DNA of 64,000 nucleotides. It comes from Dehalococcoidia bacterium (GTDB lineage Bacteria; Chloroflexota; Dehalococcoidia; Bin125). The translations under genes and the position numbers were made by a program. The notes below the pieces were generated by a model. The model did not search any database. It saw nothing but the letters and a program-made list of their open reading frames with translations, and was not told the DNA's origin. The stretch's first letter is position 1, and each line of letters begins with the position of its first letter. This document shows positions 13,148 through 17,976 of this stretch, piece after piece. The stretch is from assembly GCA_965205165.1 (NCBI GenBank), contig OZ242037.1, positions 937,619-1,001,618 of the forward strand, read 5' to 3'.

Positions 13148-14440
13148 GTGCCCGACATCCGCGATTACTGCGACCGACTGTGGAACGGGGAGATCGACAC
13201 GGTGCGCGAAGCGCACCCGATCGGCGGGATGTGGAACGACCGCGAAACGGACGAGATCGCGGACGGGCTGCTCTACTACAAGTCGGTCTCTTCCGCGAAC
13301 ACCTTCGACGCCGGCGACGGGCTGGTGATGGTCGACACGGGCGGGGAGCGCGATGCGGAGAACATCCACGCCGGCGTCCGCCGCTGGCGGCCCGACGCGC
13401 CCCTGAGGGCGGCGATCTACTCGCACCACCACGTCGATCACACCTTCGGCGTCGGCCCGTTCGACGCGGAGGCGGGGACGCCGATCCCGGTCTACGCGCA
13501 CGAGGCGATCCCCGAGCACTTCGACCGCTACCTGCGCACCATCGGCTACAACACGGCGATCAACTCGCGCCAGTTCTTCCGCCCCGGCATGAGCGCCGAG
13601 TTCCGCCTCCCCTGGCCCGAGCAGTACCGCTACCCGGACGTGACCTTCCGCGACCGCCTCGATCTGCGGATCGGCGAGCTGACCTTCGAGCTGCACCACG
13701 CCCGCGGCGAGACCGAGGACGCGGTCTGGACCTGGGTGCCCGAACGCTCGGTGCTCTGCCCGGGCGACCTGTTCATCTGGGCCGTGCCCAACGCGGGCAA
13801 CCCGCAGAAGGCGCAGCGCTGGGTCGGCGAATGGGCGGCCGCGCTGCGCAAGATGGCATCACTGGGCGCGGAAACGATGCTGCCCGGCCACGGCTTCCCG
13901 ATCTTCGGCGCCGACCGCATCGCGCAGGCTCTGAACGACACGGCCGAGCTGCTGGAGTCGATCGAGAACCAGACGTTGGCGCTGATGAACGAGGGCTGTT
14001 CGCTCAACCGCATCCTGCACGAGGTCGAAATGCCCGCGCACCTGCTCGACAAGCCCTACCTGCGCTCGGCCTACGACCACCCGGAGTTCATCATCCACAC
14101 CGTCTGGCGCTACTTCGGCGGCTGGTACGAGGGCGAACCCGACCGCCTGATGCCCGCCCCGCGCGGCGCGGAAGCAGCGGAATGGGTCGCCCTCGCCGGC
14201 GGGATCGGCCCGGTCCTGGAGCGCGCCCGCGCCCTGCTCGACGCGGGCGATCTGGTCATGGCCAGCCACATCATCGAGGGCGCGGCCGCCGCCGGCCCCG
14301 CGAACGCCGAAACCCACGCGCTCCGCGCCGAGATCTACGACCGCCGCGCCGCCGCCCAAGATTCGAGCATGGCCCGCGGCATCTTCGCCTTCGCCGCCTC
14401 CAGCAGCCGCGAAGGCAAGCGCGACGCCTTCAGCGGCTAA
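13148..14440 (+). CDS. MBL-fold metallo-hydrolase, alkyl/aryl-sulfatase-like (N-terminal MBL plus dimerisation domain; no SCP2 tail)
   Basis: HHHVDHTFG and MLPGHGFPIFG are MBL motifs. PYLRSAYDHPEFIIHTVWRYFGGWYEGEP matches the alkyl-sulfatase dimerisation domain. Putative GTG start at 13148 within track ORF 12242..14440. Confidence 0.7.
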   Translation: MPDIRDYCDRLWNGEIDTVREAHPIGGMWNDRETDEIADGLLYYKSVSSANTFDAGDGLVMVDTGGERDAENIHAGVRRWRPDAPLRAAIYSHHHVDHTFGVGPFDAEAGTPIPVYAHEAIPEHFDRYLRTIGYNTAINSRQFFRPGMSAEFRLPWPEQYRYPDVTFRDRLDLRIGELTFELHHARGETEDAVWTWVPERSVLCPGDLFIWAVPNAGNPQKAQRWVGEWAAALRKMASLGAETMLPGHGFPIFGADRIAQALNDTAELLESIENQTLALMNEGCSLNRILHEVEMPAHLLDKPYLRSAYDHPEFIIHTVWRYFGGWYEGEPDRLMPAPRGAEAAEWVALAGGIGPVLERARALLDAGDLVMASHIIEGAAAAGPANAETHALRAEIYDRRAAAQDSSMARGIFAFAASSSREGKRDAFSG

Positions 14441-15948
14441 ATCCGCATCCGCCGATTCTCGTATCCGAGCGGCATCGGCAGGTCCGGCAACCTGCCGTCG
14501 AAGTAGTCCTCGATGCTCCAAATCTGGAGCTTGCGGTACTCGCGCCCCAGCACCTCCGTGAACCCGGCGGTGACCGCTTCTTCTTCCATCCCCGCGGTGA
14601 ACGACGCCGCGTCCATCACGGCGAATACGCCCAGATCGGCGCCGGCGTCGGCCATCGCGGCCTTGAAGGCGCGGACATCGCCGCGAGCGGTGCGGCCGGC
14701 TTTGACCTGCATGACGACCGTCCCGTATTCGGTCCTCGCGCCCTTGCCGCGCCCTTCGGATTTCACGTAGCGCATGCGGCCGTCTATTCCGCCGTCGCCG
14801 GTCTGCCGCTTGTTGGGGCGGAAGCCGGTGACCCGCGTGACCGCCCACGTCTCGAATTGGAATGGCTGCGCCGCGAGCAGGCGGGCCGACGCGAGATCCT
14901 CGGGCGCCCCGATCACATCCGCCTCGGCGCCCAGCGCCTGCATCCGTTCCTCGACCAAGCCGACGGCCAAGTGCGTGATGTCCACGCCGACCCAGCGGCG
15001 ATCGTTCTTCAGCGCCACGGCCATGGCGGTGCCGCAGCCGCAGAACGGGTCCAGCACCAAGTCCCCCTCGTTGGACGAAGCGAGGATGATCCGCTCCAAC
15101 AGCGCCTCCGGCTTCTGCGTGGGGTAGCTCAGCCGCTCTTTCGCCTGCGGATTGAGAATCGGGATCTCGAAGACGTCAAACGCGGGAGTTCCCTCGTGAT
15201 CGCGGTACACGACGCGGTCGTAGTCGTCGGGATCCACGTCGCCGCGCTCGACAGCCGCCTCGAACGTCTCGGCATCCTCGACGATGATCTGGCGCTTGCG
15301 CTCGCCACCGCTCTCGTAGGTGTTTGTGTTCCAGCCGCGCGCCATCGGCGCCCGGGTCGGCGAGGTGGGGACGTACAGCTGGTTGAACACGACATCGTCG
15401 GACCTTCCGTAGAACAGGATCACGTCGTGCATCCGCTGGAATCGCTTCGCGGCCGCCGCCCAGCGGCGGTAGAACCAAACGATCTCGTTGCGGAAGTTCC
15501 CCGCCCCGAACACCGCGTCCATCAGGATCTTGAGATAGTGGCTCGCGGTCGGGTCGCAGTGCAGGTAGATCGAGCCGCTCGGCTTGAGCACGCGGTGCAG
15601 CTCCGCGAGCCGGATCGCCATCATCGCCAGATACGCCGTCATCTGATTGGTGCCCAACGCGGACACGAGCGAGTCCAATAGCGCGCCCGCCCGGGGCGAC
15701 GGCGAATCATCCCGCAGCAACTCCTCGAGCGCGCGCTGCGACTCCGCACCCCAATGCCAAGTGTCGACGAACGCCTCGATCTGGGCTTGCGGAGCGCGCC
15801 CCGACTCATCCCGGAAGAGCACGTTGTAGGTGGCATTCGAGTTGAACGGCGGATCCAAGTAGACGAGATCGACCGATTCATCGGGAAAGTGCTCGCGCAG
15901 CACCTCCAAGTTGTTGCCGTAGAACAGCTTGCCATGCAGATCATCCAT
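14437..15948 (-). CDS. beta-class N4/N6 DNA methyltransferase fused to a C-terminal Mrr-type (PD-(D/E)xK) restriction-endonuclease catalytic domain
   Basis: 503 aa. Motif IV DPPFNS precedes motif I VLDPFCGCGTAM, the beta-class order. The C-terminal ~140 aa (GDGGIDGRMRY...VMQVKAG...VFAVMDA...KLQIWSIEDYFDG) matches Mrr_cat. Stop codons overlap with the sulfatase-like gene. The start lies 13 nt after the original TPK stop. Confidence 0.8.
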   Translation of the reverse strand: MDDLHGKLFYGNNLEVLREHFPDESVDLVYLDPPFNSNATYNVLFRDESGRAPQAQIEAFVDTWHWGAESQRALEELLRDDSPSPRAGALLDSLVSALGTNQMTAYLAMMAIRLAELHRVLKPSGSIYLHCDPTASHYLKILMDAVFGAGNFRNEIVWFYRRWAAAAKRFQRMHDVILFYGRSDDVVFNQLYVPTSPTRAPMARGWNTNTYESGGERKRQIIVEDAETFEAAVERGDVDPDDYDRVVYRDHEGTPAFDVFEIPILNPQAKERLSYPTQKPEALLERIILASSNEGDLVLDPFCGCGTAMAVALKNDRRWVGVDITHLAVGLVEERMQALGAEADVIGAPEDLASARLLAAQPFQFETWAVTRVTGFRPNKRQTGDGGIDGRMRYVKSEGRGKGARTEYGTVVMQVKAGRTARGDVRAFKAAMADAGADLGVFAVMDAASFTAGMEEEAVTAGFTEVLGREYRKLQIWSIEDYFDGRLPDLPMPLGYENRRMRI

Positions 15949-15963
15949 CAGCTGAGGCTATCG

Positions 15964-16031
15964 GGGCAGCCGCTGCTGGCGGAAGTGGTGGGTGGCGAAC
16001 GCCTTGCCGGTCCCGATGCGGATCATCGCGC
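15964..16031. repeat. 68-bp direct repeat copy A (orphan copy of the TPK 3' coding tail); 67/68 identical to 17314..17381
   Basis: gggcagccgc(t/c)gctggcggaagtggtgggtggcgaacgccttgccggtcccgatgcggatcatcgcgc occurs twice. In the TPK frame it reads ...AMIRIGTGKAFATHHFRQQRLPR*. Confidence 0.9.
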
Positions 16032-16034
16032 AGC

Positions 16035-16066
16035 GCGAAGGCAAGCGCGACGCCCTCAGCGGTTAA
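16035..16066. repeat. 32-bp copy (2 mismatches) of the sulfatase-like gene's 3' end including its stop codon (original at 14409..14440)
   Basis: gcgaaggcaagcgcgacgcc(t/c)tcagcgg(c/t)taa. The copy sits immediately 3' of repeat copy A and 10 nt upstream of the 254-aa ORF. Confidence 0.85.
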
Positions 16067-16075
16067 CGTGAGGGC

Positions 16076-16840
16076 ATGGCGATAGTCGACCTGACGCTCG
16101 GACTCGAAGGCGATCCCCCGCCGGAGGTTTACGTGCGCGCAGCGCAGTGCCTCGACGAACTCGCGTCTGCACTCGCCGCCGAACAATCGTCCGTGCAGGC
16201 GGCGGTTTGGCACATGTCCGGCGCAGGGACGGGGCGCGGCGCGGTCAGCATCGCCGGCGAGTGCGCCAGCGACGAGCTGGCCGACGGGATTGCTCGCCGC
16301 TACTTGGCGATCGGGCGGATCCTTGCCCGCCAAGCGGCGGCGGAATGCTCCGAGCCTGTCCGCGGCACCGCTTCGGCGATGGCGCAACTGCTTCAAGGCG
16401 GGGTGGCGGCATTGCGCTTCGAAACCGCCTCCGGAACGGAATGGGCACCGCGGCCGATGCCTGAACCCCGCGAGGTTCCGGAGTGCGTGACCGGCTGGCG
16501 GGCGGCGCAAGCTGCACCGGTCGGCGTCCGCTTCGCCGTGCTCGACGAAATCTCCAGCCAGTCCGTCTCCTGCTATCTCGATCAACCCGACCAGCACCTG
16601 CATGAAGCGCTTCGCGACAGGCGCGTCACGGTGCACGGGCTGGTCACCTACCAGGCGAACGGCGAGTGCGCCGCCGTGGTGCGGGCGATCACGAAAATCG
16701 AACTCGATCTGAGCGCCCAAGACGACGCTTGGGGGCAATCCATGCAGATCGGCGCGGGAACGCCCGCCGGCCCCGGCTCCGTCACTTGGTTCCTCGAGGA
16801 GCGCGAACGCGCCAGGGAACGGTTCTGGCGTGAACGGTGA
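16076..16840 (+). CDS. hypothetical protein (254 aa), translationally coupled to the downstream PIN gene
   Basis: ATG preceded by gaggg. Third-position GC is coding-like. It ends (…WFLEERERARERFWRER*) 11 nt inside the PIN gene start. The antisense track ORF 15941..16738 is Arg-rich junk. Confidence 0.55.
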   Translation: MAIVDLTLGLEGDPPPEVYVRAAQCLDELASALAAEQSSVQAAVWHMSGAGTGRGAVSIAGECASDELADGIARRYLAIGRILARQAAAECSEPVRGTASAMAQLLQGGVAALRFETASGTEWAPRPMPEPREVPECVTGWRAAQAAPVGVRFAVLDEISSQSVSCYLDQPDQHLHEALRDRRVTVHGLVTYQANGECAAVVRAITKIELDLSAQDDAWGQSMQIGAGTPAGPGSVTWFLEERERARERFWRER

Positions 16841-17303
16841 GTCCTTCGACTATTGGGACGCATCGGTGTTCATCCACCGGGCCAGCGCCAATCCCGATCA
16901 TCTCCCCGCAATCGAGCGGACATTGGGGCGTTACGCGCCCGGCGAGCGCCGCATCGCCACATCGGCACTGACCCTCGCGGAGGTCGCGTTCACTGCCTCG
17001 GAGATCGTGCGCGGCGCGCGCAACGAAGTCACATTCGCGCCCTCCGCCGAACAGGAGCAGCGGATCGAGCGGATGCTGTCCAACGCCGCGGAAGTCCGCA
17101 TCGTCCCGCTCGATGAGGAGATCGGACGCCGCGCCCGCGCACTCGTCCGACTCGCGCTTAGCGAAAGCCGCCGCCTCGATCCTCCCGACGCGGTCCACCT
17201 GGCCACTGCAGAGGCGGTCGGAGCAACCGCCGTCTATACCTACGACGGCAAGTGGGCGGCTTGGGCGCGAACGCTCAACGTGAAGATCGGGAGGCCGGAG
17301 TAA
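16830..17303 (+). CDS. PIN-domain ribonuclease (VapC-like toxin)
   Basis: GTG start. The four acidic PIN residues are present: DASVFI, LAEV, DAVHLATA, TYDG. Its 3' end overlaps the TPK 3' end convergently by 29 nt. Confidence 0.75.
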   Translation: MNGESFDYWDASVFIHRASANPDHLPAIERTLGRYAPGERRIATSALTLAEVAFTASEIVRGARNEVTFAPSAEQEQRIERMLSNAAEVRIVPLDEEIGRRARALVRLALSESRRLDPPDAVHLATAEAVGATAVYTYDGKWAAWARTLNVKIGRPE

Positions 17304-17976
17304 TCCCCGCCCAGGGCAGCCGCCGCTGGCGGAAGTGGTGGGTGGCGAACGCCTTGCCGGTCCCGATGCGGATCATCGCGCGGTCGTTGATCAGTTCGTT
17401 GCTGATGCCTTGGGCGCGGCCGCGTTCGAGCGTTGCGTTCGAGAGCGACCACTTGAGGCCGACGGTTTCGACGCCTTCGATGCGGTCGGTGATCGGGATG
17501 ATGCCCGCGTAGTCGCCCGGCGCGCCGTGGAAATGGGTTTCGCGCACGCCGTCGCCGTGCAGGACGGTGATCGCGGTCCAGCCGTCCACGGCCCAGGTCG
17601 GGATGCCGCGCAGGCGGTCGCCGGCGAGCAGTTCGAGGTTGCCGAGCTCGTGGTCGAGGCGGTCGCCGCCGAAGACGCCGAGCGCGATTAGGGAGGTCGC
17701 GCCGCGGGCCAGCGCTTCTGCAATGGCGACATCGGCGTCGGTGCGCTGCTGCGGGGCGGGATGCGGGACGATGGCGGCGCCGGCCGCGCGGTGATCGGCC
17801 AGTTCGTCCGGGCTGAGCGAGTCGAAGTCGCCGATCAGCACGTGCGGGGCTATGCCCAGCGCGGCGAGGCGGCGCGCGCCGCCGTCGGCCGCGACGATCA
17901 AGCCGGCCCCGTCGAGCGCGGAGCGGACGAGCGCCGAGTCGTCGATCCCGCCGCCCAGGGCGACGACGGCCTGCAT
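17275..17976 (-). CDS. thiamine pyrophosphokinase
   Basis: MQAVVALGGGIDD...LIVAADGGARRL...HVLIGDFDS matches the TPK catalytic and thiamine-binding domains. The last 12 codons are encoded by sequence outside repeat copy B, so the C-terminus differs from the orphan copy. Confidence 0.8.
   Translation of the reverse strand: MQAVVALGGGIDDSALVRSALDGAGLIVAADGGARRLAALGIAPHVLIGDFDSLSPDELADHRAAGAAIVPHPAPQQRTDADVAIAEALARGATSLIALGVFGGDRLDHELGNLELLAGDRLRGIPTWAVDGWTAITVLHGDGVRETHFHGAPGDYAGIIPITDRIEGVETVGLKWSLSNATLERGRAQGISNELINDRAMIRIGTGKAFATHHFRQRRLPWAGITPASRSSR
17314..17381. repeat. 68-bp direct repeat copy B (inside the functional TPK gene)
   Basis: Identical to 15964..16031 except for one T/C difference. 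Confidence 0.9.

What the first reader, a model, noticed from the sequence alone, without database searches (positions are those of the whole stretch)
14437..15948. Single-polypeptide DNA methyltransferase–Mrr nuclease fusion directly downstream of TPK
The 503-aa protein has a complete beta-class amino-methyltransferase (DPPF then FCGCGT) fused to an Mrr_cat-like PD-(D/E)xK nuclease domain (GDGGIDG…VMQVKAG…VFAVMDA). No separate restriction or specificity gene is adjacent. MTase fused to an Mrr-type catalytic domain is an uncommon architecture. It could be a one-chain restriction-modification enzyme, or a methylation enzyme using a nuclease-fold domain for DNA anchoring. Its gene boundaries are unusually tight: stop overlapping the sulfatase-like stop, start 13 nt after the original TPK stop. 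That is consistent with insertion into a pre-existing junction.
Basis: partly seen in the sequence, partly recalled or inferred. Interest (0 to 1): 0.65.

Follow-up and report, generated by a model that had tools for sequence, protein, structure and literature searches.

The report
Solitary DNA methyltransferase–Mrr nuclease-domain fusion
The gene is real and does encode a DNA methyltransferase fused to an intact Mrr-type nuclease-fold domain, but this architecture is a widespread, uncharacterised single-gene family rather than a rarity, and here it is an old resident of a variable gene junction, not a fresh insertion.

Summary
ORF 14437-15948 (-) encodes a 503-aa protein with a beta-class amino-methyltransferase (PF01555, E=4.5e-43) and a C-terminal Mrr_cat domain (PF04471, 27.4 bits, cutoff 21). 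Its E366, D385, D389, Q414-x-K416 motif is intact.

- **Architecture is common.** The best 120 of at least 8000 hits are full length. At least 582 genome loci in many phyla encode relatives, as do 27 actinophages and 7 plasmids. 575 clusters (50% identity) carry this C-domain at E<=1e-30.
- **No conserved partner gene** was found in 84 loci.
- **The methyltransferase is not the recent insert.** Relatives at 71-98% identity keep it beside the sulfatase-like gene. It diverges in step with its flanks (dN/dS about 0.12).
- **The recent addition is the ORF254+PIN cassette.** It split TPK from the methyltransferase and left a 68-nt TPK remnant and a 33-nt sulfatase remnant. A very close relative has only that cassette and no methyltransferase at this junction.

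Function is inferred. I rate a one-chain restriction-modification enzyme at about 0.4 and a solitary methylase with a non-cutting DNA-anchoring domain at about 0.35. It is a new member of a known, uncharacterised kind, of modest interest.

The parts
14437..15948 (-). Complete gene for the 503-aa methyltransferase-Mrr fusion
   Evidence: ORF list. Two Pfam domains. Full-length homologues. AF2 model pLDDT 85.9, pTM 0.80.
14929..15948 (-). Beta-class amino-methyltransferase domain (aa 1-340). Motif IV DPPF at aa 32-35, TQKP at 277-280, motif I FCGCGT at 302-307.
   Evidence: PF01555 E=4.5e-43. PADLOC MTase_II 7e-65. Foldseek to M.RsrI, M.BceJIV, M.MboIIA, EcoP15I Mod and CcrM at E 1e-15 to 1e-17. 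These motifs are invariant or nearly so (at least 119 of 121 sequences).
15163..15396 (-). Variable central region (aa 185-262), presumed target-recognition domain of the beta-class enzyme
   Evidence: Low column conservation and indels across the family, but conserved among clade relatives. dN/dS 0.03-0.11 against L090 and L001. The TRD role is inferred from the beta-class domain order.
14866..14928 (-). Conserved inter-domain linker (aa 341-361), with G347, P349, A355 and L358 invariant
   Evidence: Alignment A1 invariant columns.
14440..14925 (-). Mrr-type PD-QxK nuclease-fold domain (aa 342-503). E366 at nt 14851-14853, D385 at 14794-14796, D389 at 14782-14784, Q414 at 14707-14709, K416 at 14701-14703.
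   Evidence: Mrr_cat is above the curated cutoff in all 26 members tested. D385, G387, D389, G390 and K416 are invariant in 121 sequences. AF2 domain model pLDDT 89.4. Best PDB fold matches are the MspJI and AspBHI nuclease domains.
15958..16031 (-). Remnant of the ancestral TPK 3' end (T_A), reading ...HHFRQQRLPR then TAG, ending 9 nt before the methyltransferase ATG
   Evidence: 68-nt direct repeat, 99% identical to 17314-17381. Sequence read. L004 has an intact TPK ending RLPQ* 31 nt before its methyltransferase ATG.
16034..16066 (+). Remnant copy of the sulfatase-like gene 3' end (S_B), followed 9 nt later by the ORF254 ATG
   Evidence: 33-nt repeat, 94% identical to 14408-14440. The same 'sulfatase stop + 9 nt + ATG' junction is seen intact in L091/L092.
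16076..17303 (+). Inserted cassette: ORF254 (16076-16840, no known family) plus PIN-domain gene (16830-17303). It is not part of the methyltransferase unit but explains its boundaries.
   Evidence: PIN PF01850 E=8.8e-14; ORF254 has no hits. GC3 0.79 against 0.94-0.97 in core genes. Absent from L004/L005 and L002/L003; present without the methyltransferase in L091/L092.
13151..14440 (+). Alkyl-sulfatase-like MBL-fold gene, convergent with the methyltransferase, stop codons overlapping
   Evidence: Lactamase_B plus Alkyl_sulf_dimr. Adjacent to the methyltransferase in every clade relative that has the methyltransferase.
17275..17976 (-). Functional thiamine pyrophosphokinase gene. Its 3' end is altered (12-aa extension) and overlaps the PIN gene by 29 nt.
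   Evidence: TPK_catalytic plus TPK_B1_binding. Sequence read.

Best explanation
The gene encodes a solitary, self-contained modification-plus-nuclease enzyme. The N-terminal 340 residues are a beta-class SAM-dependent DNA amino-methyltransferase. The DPPF motif and its closest relatives suggest N6-adenine. Its variable middle segment (aa 185-262) presumably reads a short DNA sequence. A conserved linker ties it to a C-terminal Mrr-type PD-QxK nuclease domain whose catalytic residues are canonical. The most likely mechanism is a one-chain restriction-modification enzyme. On resident DNA the methyltransferase keeps its sites methylated. On incoming unmethylated DNA, the same sequence-reading half positions the tethered nuclease to cut nearby. 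This is the logic of Type IIG and Type ISP enzymes, but with a beta-class methylase and the nuclease at the C-terminus. What is shown: domain identities, motif integrity, purifying selection on both halves, single-gene mobility, and the history of the locus. What is inferred: methylation specificity, that the nuclease cuts at all, and that it cuts unmethylated DNA. At this locus the gene is a long-standing accessory gene in a variable slot between the sulfatase-like and TPK genes. Originally it was probably co-transcribed downstream of TPK.
For: Both domains are confirmed. Mrr residues D385, D389 and K416 are invariant in 121 homologues, although domain identity falls to about 30%. The window protein has the full canonical E...D...D...QxK set, which the literature gives as the active site of Mrr, MspJI and the Type ISP nucleases (PMC12707154; PMC3874165). 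The best fold matches of the C-domain are the active MspJI and AspBHI nuclease domains. dN/dS is 0.08-0.12 for the methyltransferase half and 0.12-0.20 for the Mrr half against L090 and L001. No conserved neighbour was found in 84 loci, so the gene functions alone. Distribution is patchy across phyla, plasmids and temperate phages, and the recognition region is variable, as is typical of RM-type genes. Presence is polymorphic: L091/L092 lack it at this junction although sulfatase is 95-96% and GroEL 98.8% identical. The same neighbourhood in relative L002 holds an MmeI-family RM gene. The linker residues are invariant.
Against: There is no experimental datum for any family member, and no paper on this fusion was found. 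Two active-site positions vary in the family. E366 is Q in 42 of 121 sequences. Position 414 is S in 34 of 121, and S is the commonest residue among the 148 best C-domain relatives. Many homologues score better on PF22722, a family named as an inactive REase. All source annotations say only 'DNA methyltransferase'. The gene has co-diverged with its flanks down to 71% identity, and four Sphingomonas loci share synteny; this is more typical of lineage-conserved orphan methylases. All characterised one-chain RM enzymes I know of use gamma-class methylases with N-terminal nucleases (own knowledge; PMC3874165).
Confidence: 0.4

Rival explanations
1. Solitary (orphan-type) DNA methyltransferase in which the Mrr-fold domain does not cut. 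It acts as a non-specific DNA clamp or dimerisation module that holds the non-target strand or aids processive scanning. [quoted passage not shown]
For: CcrM is a beta-class methylase with a C-terminal non-specific DNA-binding domain that is required for activity (PMC6787082). Homologues match PF22722, named an inactive REase. E366Q and Q414S substitutions are common in the family. The gene is retained at one position with flank-like divergence in this clade and is syntenic in Sphingomonas. Phage copies sit in the DNA-metabolism module, as phage self-protecting methylases do. Annotators call it only a methyltransferase.
Against: D385, D389 and K416 are invariant across phyla, which is unexpected for a purely binding role. 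The CcrM domain is SAND-like, not PD-(D/E)xK, so it is an analogy and not homology. The gene is dispensable in a near-identical relative, which argues against an essential housekeeping role.
Confidence: 0.35
2. The nuclease is active but is not a classical restriction activity. Examples are a strand-specific nickase acting at hemimethylated or newly replicated sites (MutH-like logic), or a modification-dependent (Type IV-like) cutter of foreign methylation patterns for which the methylase half serves as the DNA reader.
For: The characterised Mrr_cat enzymes Mrr, MspJI and AspBHI are modification-dependent (PMC12707154; fold matches). The gene is vertically retained and probably once lay in an operon with TPK.
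Against: No modification-reading domain (wH, SRA, PUA) is present. The catalytic methylase motifs are invariant or nearly so (at least 119 of 121 sequences), so the N-terminal half is an enzyme and not merely a reader. No repair genes are linked.
Confidence: 0.12
3. The methyltransferase gene was recently inserted into a pre-existing sulfatase/TPK junction.
For: Boundaries are tight and the stop codons overlap. GC3 is slightly lower (0.88) than in core genes (0.94-0.97). The gene is absent from this junction in L091/L092. The family is clearly horizontally mobile at large scale.
Against: The methyltransferase sits beside the sulfatase-like gene in relatives at 71-75% identity. Its dS equals that of the flanks: 0.094 against 0.054-0.071 for L090, and 0.24 against 0.21-0.35 for L001. 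The duplicated gene ends flank the ORF254-PIN cassette junction, not the methyltransferase. The cassette has the most atypical GC3, 0.79.
Confidence: 0.1

Closest known systems
Type ISP restriction-modification enzymes (LlaGI, LlaBIII)
   Same: One polypeptide combines an Mrr-like PD-QxK nuclease with a DNA methyltransferase and its recognition module, and it attacks unmodified DNA (PMC3874165).
   Different: Type ISP enzymes have the nuclease at the N-terminus, an ATP-dependent translocase, a gamma-class methylase and a C-terminal TRD, and are about 1500 aa long. Here there is no ATPase, the methylase is beta-class with a central variable region, the nuclease is C-terminal, and the protein is 503 aa.
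Type IIG / IIC one-chain enzymes (MmeI, BpuSI, Eco57I)
   Same: They are solitary single genes with nuclease, methylase and recognition in one chain. They have variable specificity and patchy distribution. An MmeI-family gene sits in the same neighbourhood in relative L002.
   Different: Known members use gamma-class (N6_Mtase/MmeI_Mtase) domains with an N-terminal PD-ExK nuclease (PMC3185434 abstract; own knowledge). This protein has the reversed order and a beta-class methylase. Cleavage is unproven.
Mrr / MspJI / AspBHI modification-dependent endonucleases
   Same: The C-domain is the same Pfam family (Mrr_cat), has the same D...QxK motif, and gives these as its best fold matches.
   Different: Those enzymes pair the nuclease with an N-terminal modification reader (wH or SRA) and cut methylated DNA. 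Here the partner is an active-looking methyltransferase.
CcrM and other solitary beta-class N6-adenine methyltransferases (M.BceJIV, M.RsrI)
   Same: Same methylase class and fold. CcrM also carries a C-terminal DNA-binding domain needed for activity. There is no adjacent REase gene.
   Different: The CcrM C-domain is SAND-like and about 90 aa. NCBIfam CcrM and YhdJ equivalog scores are far below their cutoffs, 83 against 830 and 103 against 292. The gene is not universally retained in close relatives.
Type III Mod subunits (EcoP15I, Mbo45V)
   Same: Beta-class methylase with the recognition region inserted between motif blocks.
   Different: There is no Res helicase-nuclease gene next to it in the window, and no conserved neighbour gene of any kind among the 84 family loci. 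The nuclease fold is fused directly to the methylase.

Membership tests
Beta-class N6/N4 DNA amino-methyltransferase (Pfam PF01555) | Profile match above the curated threshold | tested here: met
   148.2 bits against a cutoff of 26.7, aa 26-326.
Beta-class N6/N4 DNA amino-methyltransferase (Pfam PF01555) | Motif IV (D/S)PP(Y/F) lies N-terminal to SAM-binding motif I FxGxG, with the variable region between them | tested here: met
   DPPF at 32-35, FCGCGT at 302-307, variable block at 185-262.
Beta-class N6/N4 DNA amino-methyltransferase (Pfam PF01555) | Fold match to solved beta-class enzymes | tested here: met
   Foldseek to M.RsrI, M.BceJIV and M.MboIIA at E 1e-15 to 1e-17, TM (target) 0.65-0.79.
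Beta-class N6/N4 DNA amino-methyltransferase (Pfam PF01555) | Base specificity (N6-adenine or N4-cytosine) and recognition sequence | not testable with these tools
   DPPF and the nearest characterised relatives (adenine enzymes) suggest m6A. Only a methylome or enzymology can show it.
Mrr_cat restriction endonuclease domain (Pfam PF04471) | Profile match above the curated threshold | tested here: met
   27.4 bits (full protein) and 29.2 bits (domain alone) against a cutoff of 21. All 26 family C-domains tested match.
Mrr_cat restriction endonuclease domain (Pfam PF04471) | Catalytic D...(Q/E)xK motif present | tested here: met
   D385/D389...Q414-V-K416. D, D and K are invariant in 121 sequences. 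The motif definition comes from PMC12707154.
Mrr_cat restriction endonuclease domain (Pfam PF04471) | PD-(D/E)xK alpha/beta fold | tested here: met
   AF2 domain model pLDDT 89.4. The top PDB matches are the MspJI and AspBHI nuclease domains with probability 0.95-0.99, but E is only about 1e-2 and TM 0.44-0.56.
Mrr_cat restriction endonuclease domain (Pfam PF04471) | Endonuclease activity | not testable with these tools
   No experimental data were found for any family member.
Type IIG/IIC one-chain restriction-modification enzyme | Nuclease and methyltransferase domains in one polypeptide, with no separate M or S gene | tested here: met
Type IIG/IIC one-chain restriction-modification enzyme | Gamma-class methylase with an N-terminal nuclease, as in characterised members | tested here: not met
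   The methylase is beta-class and the nuclease is C-terminal.
Type IIG/IIC one-chain restriction-modification enzyme | Cleavage of unmodified DNA near the recognition site | not testable with these tools
   Requires enzymology.
Type III restriction-modification system | Adjacent res gene encoding a helicase-nuclease | tested here: not met
   The neighbours are a sulfatase-like MBL gene, ORF254, PIN and TPK. No conserved partner was found in 84 loci.
Type IV Mrr-type modification-dependent endonuclease | N-terminal modification-sensing domain (wH, SRA or similar) | tested here: not met
   The N-terminal part is a complete methyltransferase.
Lineage-conserved orphan methyltransferase (CcrM/Dam type) | No cognate REase gene, and retained at one locus across a lineage | tested here: inconclusive
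   Retained beside the sulfatase-like gene in relatives at 71-98% identity with flank-like dS. Absent from this junction in the very close relative L091/L092.
Lineage-conserved orphan methyltransferase (CcrM/Dam type) | Equivalog-level similarity to CcrM or YhdJ | tested here: not met
   NCBIfam CcrM scores 83 bits against a cutoff of 830. PRK11524 scores 103 against 292.

The most novel reading that the evidence does not exclude
The whole family would be an unrecognised class of one-chain restriction-modification enzymes. It has hundreds to thousands of clusters in bacteria, at least one archaeon, plasmids and temperate actinophages. Such enzymes would be built the opposite way round from Type IIG: a beta-class methylase with a central recognition region, followed by a C-terminal Mrr-type PD-QxK cutter, in only about 500 aa and without an ATPase.
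Probability: 0.3. Interest if true: 0.6.

Novelty: new member of a known kind. Interest (0 to 1): 0.3.

Why it matters
For this window it matters little. The gene is one ordinary member of a large family that databases already catalogue as 'DNA methyltransferase' with PF01555 and PF04471.

Two things are worth keeping.
- **The family is abundant but I found no functional study of it.** If its conserved Mrr-type site is active, it would be a compact one-chain RM design not represented among the characterised types. That would be of interest for defence-system catalogues and as a source of new specificities.
- **The locus is a clean natural record of how alternative accessory cassettes are stacked.** The slot lies between two convergent housekeeping genes. 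Truncated copies of both flanking gene ends mark the join between the cassettes.

Tried and rejected
- **Conserved partner gene.** ORFs within 3 kb of 84 family loci were clustered by all-against-all BLASTP. The only cross-lineage cluster (7 loci) was generic ABC-transporter ATPases. Rejected.
- **Homology of the C-domain to the CcrM C-terminal domain.** The CcrM domain is SAND-like, and 6pbd is absent from the C-domain fold hits. Rejected as homology and kept as a functional analogy.
- **Sequence search of the C-domain profile against PDB.** No hit at E<=1.
- **Literature.** Searches for the domain pair, for Mrr-methylase fusions, for one-chain enzymes with an N-terminal methylase, and for iREase found nothing on this family.
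- **Exact-protein look-ups.** Look-ups of the window methyltransferase and of ORF254 (also as P0269) returned nothing.
- **Promoters.** The sigma-70 scan of 14300-17500 found none. This is uninformative in a genome of about 70% G+C.
- **Simple tandem duplication of the sulfatase-to-TPK segment.** The two units carry unrelated cargo. Rejected.
- **GC microhomology at 16030-16031 as the original junction.** L001 has a different, longer remnant (111 nt of TPK, 38 nt of sulfatase), so the window junction may be a later deletion. Not relied on.
- **Organism identity.** Not established. The best genome-collection relatives are only 40-50% identical, and the sources give no names.
Full report
**1. 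The observation**

The minus-strand ORF 14437-15948 starts with ATG and encodes 503 aa.

| Motif | Residues |
|---|---|
| DPPF (motif IV) | 32-35 |
| FCGCGT (motif I) | 302-307 |
| GDGGIDG | 384-390 |
| VMQVKAG | 412-418 |
| VFAVMDA | 441-447 |

Pfam-A confirms both domains.
- N6_N4_Mtase covers aa 26-326 with E=4.5e-43.
- Mrr_cat covers aa 361-458 with E=3.9e-6 and 27.4 bits against a curated cutoff of 21.
- PF22722 (NA-iREase1) gives a sub-threshold hit.

Other libraries agree on the methylase half. PADLOC sees only methyltransferase models, the best being MTase_II at 7e-65. NCBIfam gives adenine-methylase families far below their equivalog cutoffs. PDB sequence hits are all beta-class methylases: M.BceJIV, CcrM, M.MboIIA, M.RsrI and Type III Mod.

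The structure models are confident.
- The full-length AlphaFold2 model, built from a 64-sequence alignment, has pLDDT 85.9 and pTM 0.80. Foldseek matches it to M.RsrI, M.BceJIV, M.MboIIA, EcoP15I Mod and CcrM at E 1e-15 to 1e-17. No solved structure covers both domains.
- A separate model of aa 342-503 has pLDDT 89.4. Its best PDB matches are the Mrr-like nuclease domains of MspJI and AspBHI, with probability 0.95-0.99. The E-values are weak (about 1e-2) and TM is 0.44-0.56.

**2. Integrity of the nuclease site**

I aligned the query with its 120 best homologues, which fall to 44% identity.
- The methylase motifs DPPF, TQKP and FCGCGT are invariant or nearly so, in at least 119 of 121 sequences.
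- In the C-domain, F365, W368, D385, G387, D389, G390 and K416 are invariant or nearly so.
- E366 is E in 79 sequences and Q in 42.
- Position 414 is Q in 84, S in 34 and E in 3.

The window protein therefore carries the canonical Mrr pattern E...D.G.D...QxK. The literature describes this 'PD-QxK' as the catalytic site of EcoKMrr and MspJI and of the Type ISP nucleases (PMC12707154; PMC3874165).

Among the 148 best C-domain relatives in the 50%-identity library, the third position is S in 79, Q in 47 and E in 8. The D/D/K core is fixed, but the remaining positions are not.

Nei-Gojobori estimates against the close relatives L090 and L001 give the following dN/dS values.

| Region | dN/dS |
|---|---|
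| Methylase half | 0.08-0.12 |
| Mrr half | 0.12-0.20 |
| Flanking genes | 0.01-0.13 |

Both halves are under purifying selection.

**3. The architecture is common**

- The 5.8-billion-protein search saturated at 8000 hits. The top 120 are all full length, covering 95-100% of the query, and most carry PF04471 and/or PF22722 with PF01555.
They lie in Chloroflexota, Sphingomonadales, Caulobacteraceae, Acidobacteriota, Ignavibacteria, Rubrobacter and Actinomadura, and in one Thermoplasmatales archaeon.
- A profile of the C-domain finds 575 clusters (50% identity) at E<=1e-30 and 2382 at E<=1e-10. In the 150 listed matches, the only ones whose coordinates were returned, the domain lies at or near the C-terminus in all but one.
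- Of the 148 newly returned matches whose sequences I checked, 103 have enough upstream sequence to judge, and 78 of those show methylase motif I. Of the 25 others, the 10 scanned against Pfam include methylase fragments, intein-interrupted forms and one ParB_N fusion.
- Two-domain homologues at 41-47% identity occur in 22 Streptomyces Likavirus phages. In phage Hippo the gene (48) lies next to the serine integrase, ThyX and RNR genes; the other phages carry it at the same genome coordinates. Five mycobacteriophage records carry it too.
- Seven plasmids carry it, including Mesorhizobium japonicum pMLa.
- Where the sources name it, they call it 'DNA methyltransferase' or similar.

The claim of an uncommon architecture is therefore wrong.

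**4. No partner gene**

I called ORFs within 3 kb of the methylase in 84 loci and clustered them by BLASTP. Only lineage-specific synteny groups appeared: this clade, and four Sphingomonas loci. One 7-locus cluster turned out to be generic ABC ATPases. Contexts of more distant homologues (L006, L007) are unrelated metabolic or IS genes. The family travels and works as a single gene.

**5. History of the locus**

Two direct repeats frame the region.
- The last 33 nt of the sulfatase-like gene (14408-14440) recur at 16034-16066 with 94% identity.
- A 68-nt stretch near the TPK 3' end (17314-17381) recurs at 15964-16031 with 99% identity.

Reading the sequence gives this order:

sulfatase end | methyltransferase (-) | TPK-end remnant (...RLPR, TAG, 9 nt, methyltransferase ATG) | sulfatase-end remnant (TAA, 9 nt, ORF254 ATG) | ORF254 + PIN (+) | real TPK (-).

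Metagenomic relatives show three configurations of this junction.

| Configuration | Loci |
|---|---|
| (a) sulfatase, methyltransferase, TPK; TPK stop 31 nt before the methyltransferase ATG | L004/L005 (71% methyltransferase identity) |
| (a') sulfatase, methyltransferase, with pyruvate kinase on the other side after rearrangement | L002/L003 (75%) |
| (b) sulfatase, ORF254-PIN, TPK; no methyltransferase; 'sulfatase stop + 9 nt + ATG' junction | L091/L092 |
| (c) composite of both | window, L090 (97.6%), L001 (94%) |

L091/L092 come from a very close relative. Their sulfatase is 95-96% and their GroEL 98.8% identical to the window's.

Methyltransferase identity tracks that of its flanks.

| Relative | Methyltransferase | Sulfatase | Luciferase-like |
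|---|---|---|---|
| L001 | 94% | 93% | 93% |
| L002 | 75% | 74% | - |
| L004 | 71% | 70% | 78% |

Its dS also matches the flanks. GC3 is 0.88 for the methyltransferase, 0.94-0.97 for core genes and 0.79 for ORF254 and PIN.

My reading is as follows.
- The methyltransferase is an old accessory resident, probably once co-transcribed with TPK.
- Configuration (c) arose when a (b)-type segment was joined to an (a)-type chromosome. This could have happened through a homologous crossover in TPK plus an illegitimate join, or through Campbell-type integration of a circularised fragment. Either route leaves the two truncated gene ends head to head.
- L001 has longer remnants than the window: 111 nt against 68 nt of TPK, and 38 nt against 33 nt of sulfatase. 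The window junction may therefore have been shortened later.
- Configuration (b) in L091/L092 is either the donor type or a secondary loss of the methyltransferase by recombination between the two sulfatase-end repeats.

Either way the gene is dispensable at this junction in a near-identical genome. The slot is a variable hot spot, and in L002 the same neighbourhood also holds an MmeI-family Type IIG gene.

**6. Mechanism**

What is shown:
- a complete beta-class methylase, probably m6A given DPPF and adenine-specific nearest relatives;
- an intact, selected Mrr-type site on a conserved linker (G347, P349, A355 and L358 invariant);
- single-gene autonomy;
- accessory, mobile behaviour at large scale.

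I commit, at about 0.4, to a one-chain restriction-modification enzyme. The methylase half reads and methylates a short site, and the tethered Mrr module cuts when the site is unmodified. The precedent is that Mrr-like PD-QxK domains are the cutters of the single-chain Type ISP enzymes.

The main rival, at about 0.35, is a solitary methylase whose nuclease-fold domain only anchors DNA. CcrM shows that a beta-class methylase can depend on a C-terminal non-specific DNA-binding domain, although that domain has a SAND-like fold. Four observations favour this rival:
- the E-to-Q and Q-to-S variants in the family;
- the 'inactive REase' profile hits;
- the long vertical retention in this clade;
- the phage copies sitting in the DNA-metabolism module.

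A third option, at about 0.12, is an active nuclease with a non-restriction role, such as nicking or modification-dependent cutting. Computation cannot separate these three. The toxicity test of a methylase-dead allele would.

**7. Comparison and verdict**

The protein is a member of PF01555 (beta class) and carries a bona fide PF04471 domain. It is not a member of characterised Type IIG/ISP, Type III or Type IV Mrr systems, nor a CcrM or YhdJ equivalog. In each case a defining feature was tested and not met; see the membership table.

It is a new member of a known, catalogued but functionally uncharacterised family. I found no publication on this fusion in the held library.

Interest is modest at 0.3. 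The individual gene is ordinary. The residual value lies in the possibility, at about 0.3, that the family is an unrecognised compact RM design, and in the neat record of cassette stacking at the junction.

Noticed in passing
window 16076-17303 (+): ORF254 plus a PIN-domain gene form a tight pair with an 11-nt overlap. ORF254 has no Pfam, NCBIfam or PADLOC hit and only 10 homologues among 5.8 billion proteins, all from this clade. It evolves fast: 65-87% identity where PIN is 77-99% and flanks are 95-99%, with dN/dS 0.26-0.40. The GC3 of the pair is 0.79 against 0.94-0.97 in core genes. It could be a toxin-antitoxin-like or defence cassette with a novel, diversifying partner protein.
   Followed up: partly
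window 15958-16066; L001 3575-3714: Truncated 3' ends of the two flanking genes are joined head to head: TPK remnant, then sulfatase remnant. This marks where two alternative cassette alleles were stacked. The remnants differ in length between the window (68 + 33 nt) and L001 (111 + 38 nt).
   Followed up: yes
window 17275-17313: The functional TPK gene has a 12-aa C-terminal extension (LPWAGITPASRSSR*) that overlaps the convergent PIN gene by 29 nt. The ancestral ends are LPR*, LPQ* or LP* in the remnant, L004 and L091.
   Followed up: partly
L002 584-3376 and 14063-16768: In a relative at 75% methyltransferase identity, the same neighbourhood contains a complete MmeI-family Type IIG gene (930 aa) and a 901-aa protein with a faint N6_Mtase hit. 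The region seems to collect RM-type genes.
   Followed up: no
proteins P0014/P0283 and P0030/P0284: A member of the window protein's 90% cluster and a paralogue at 53-54% identity each report the same longest-contig length (2,613,401 bp and 2,842,576 bp). This suggests that genomes of this clade carry two different members of the family.
   Followed up: no
proteins P0165, P0177, P0132: Some proteins with this C-domain carry weak, below-cutoff Intein_splicing hits, in P0177 together with a strong DUF559 endonuclease domain, which suggests intein insertions. One protein (P0132) pairs a ParB_N domain with the Mrr-like domain and has no methylase hit.
   Followed up: no
L004 9513-10208: A 697-nt gap between the methyltransferase and the sulfatase-like gene contains internally repeated DNA. 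The translations repeat 'PPRHTRACRGYLD...HAAHLATPAPL'. This gap is absent from the window, where the two stop codons overlap.
   Followed up: no
L089 (Streptomyces phage Hippo) 3980-5623: The temperate Likavirus phages carry the two-domain methylase at the same genome coordinates. In phage Hippo it lies between the serine integrase and ribonucleotide reductase genes, and its Mrr motif is the D...SxK variant (GDRGIDG...VSVKGG).
   Followed up: partly
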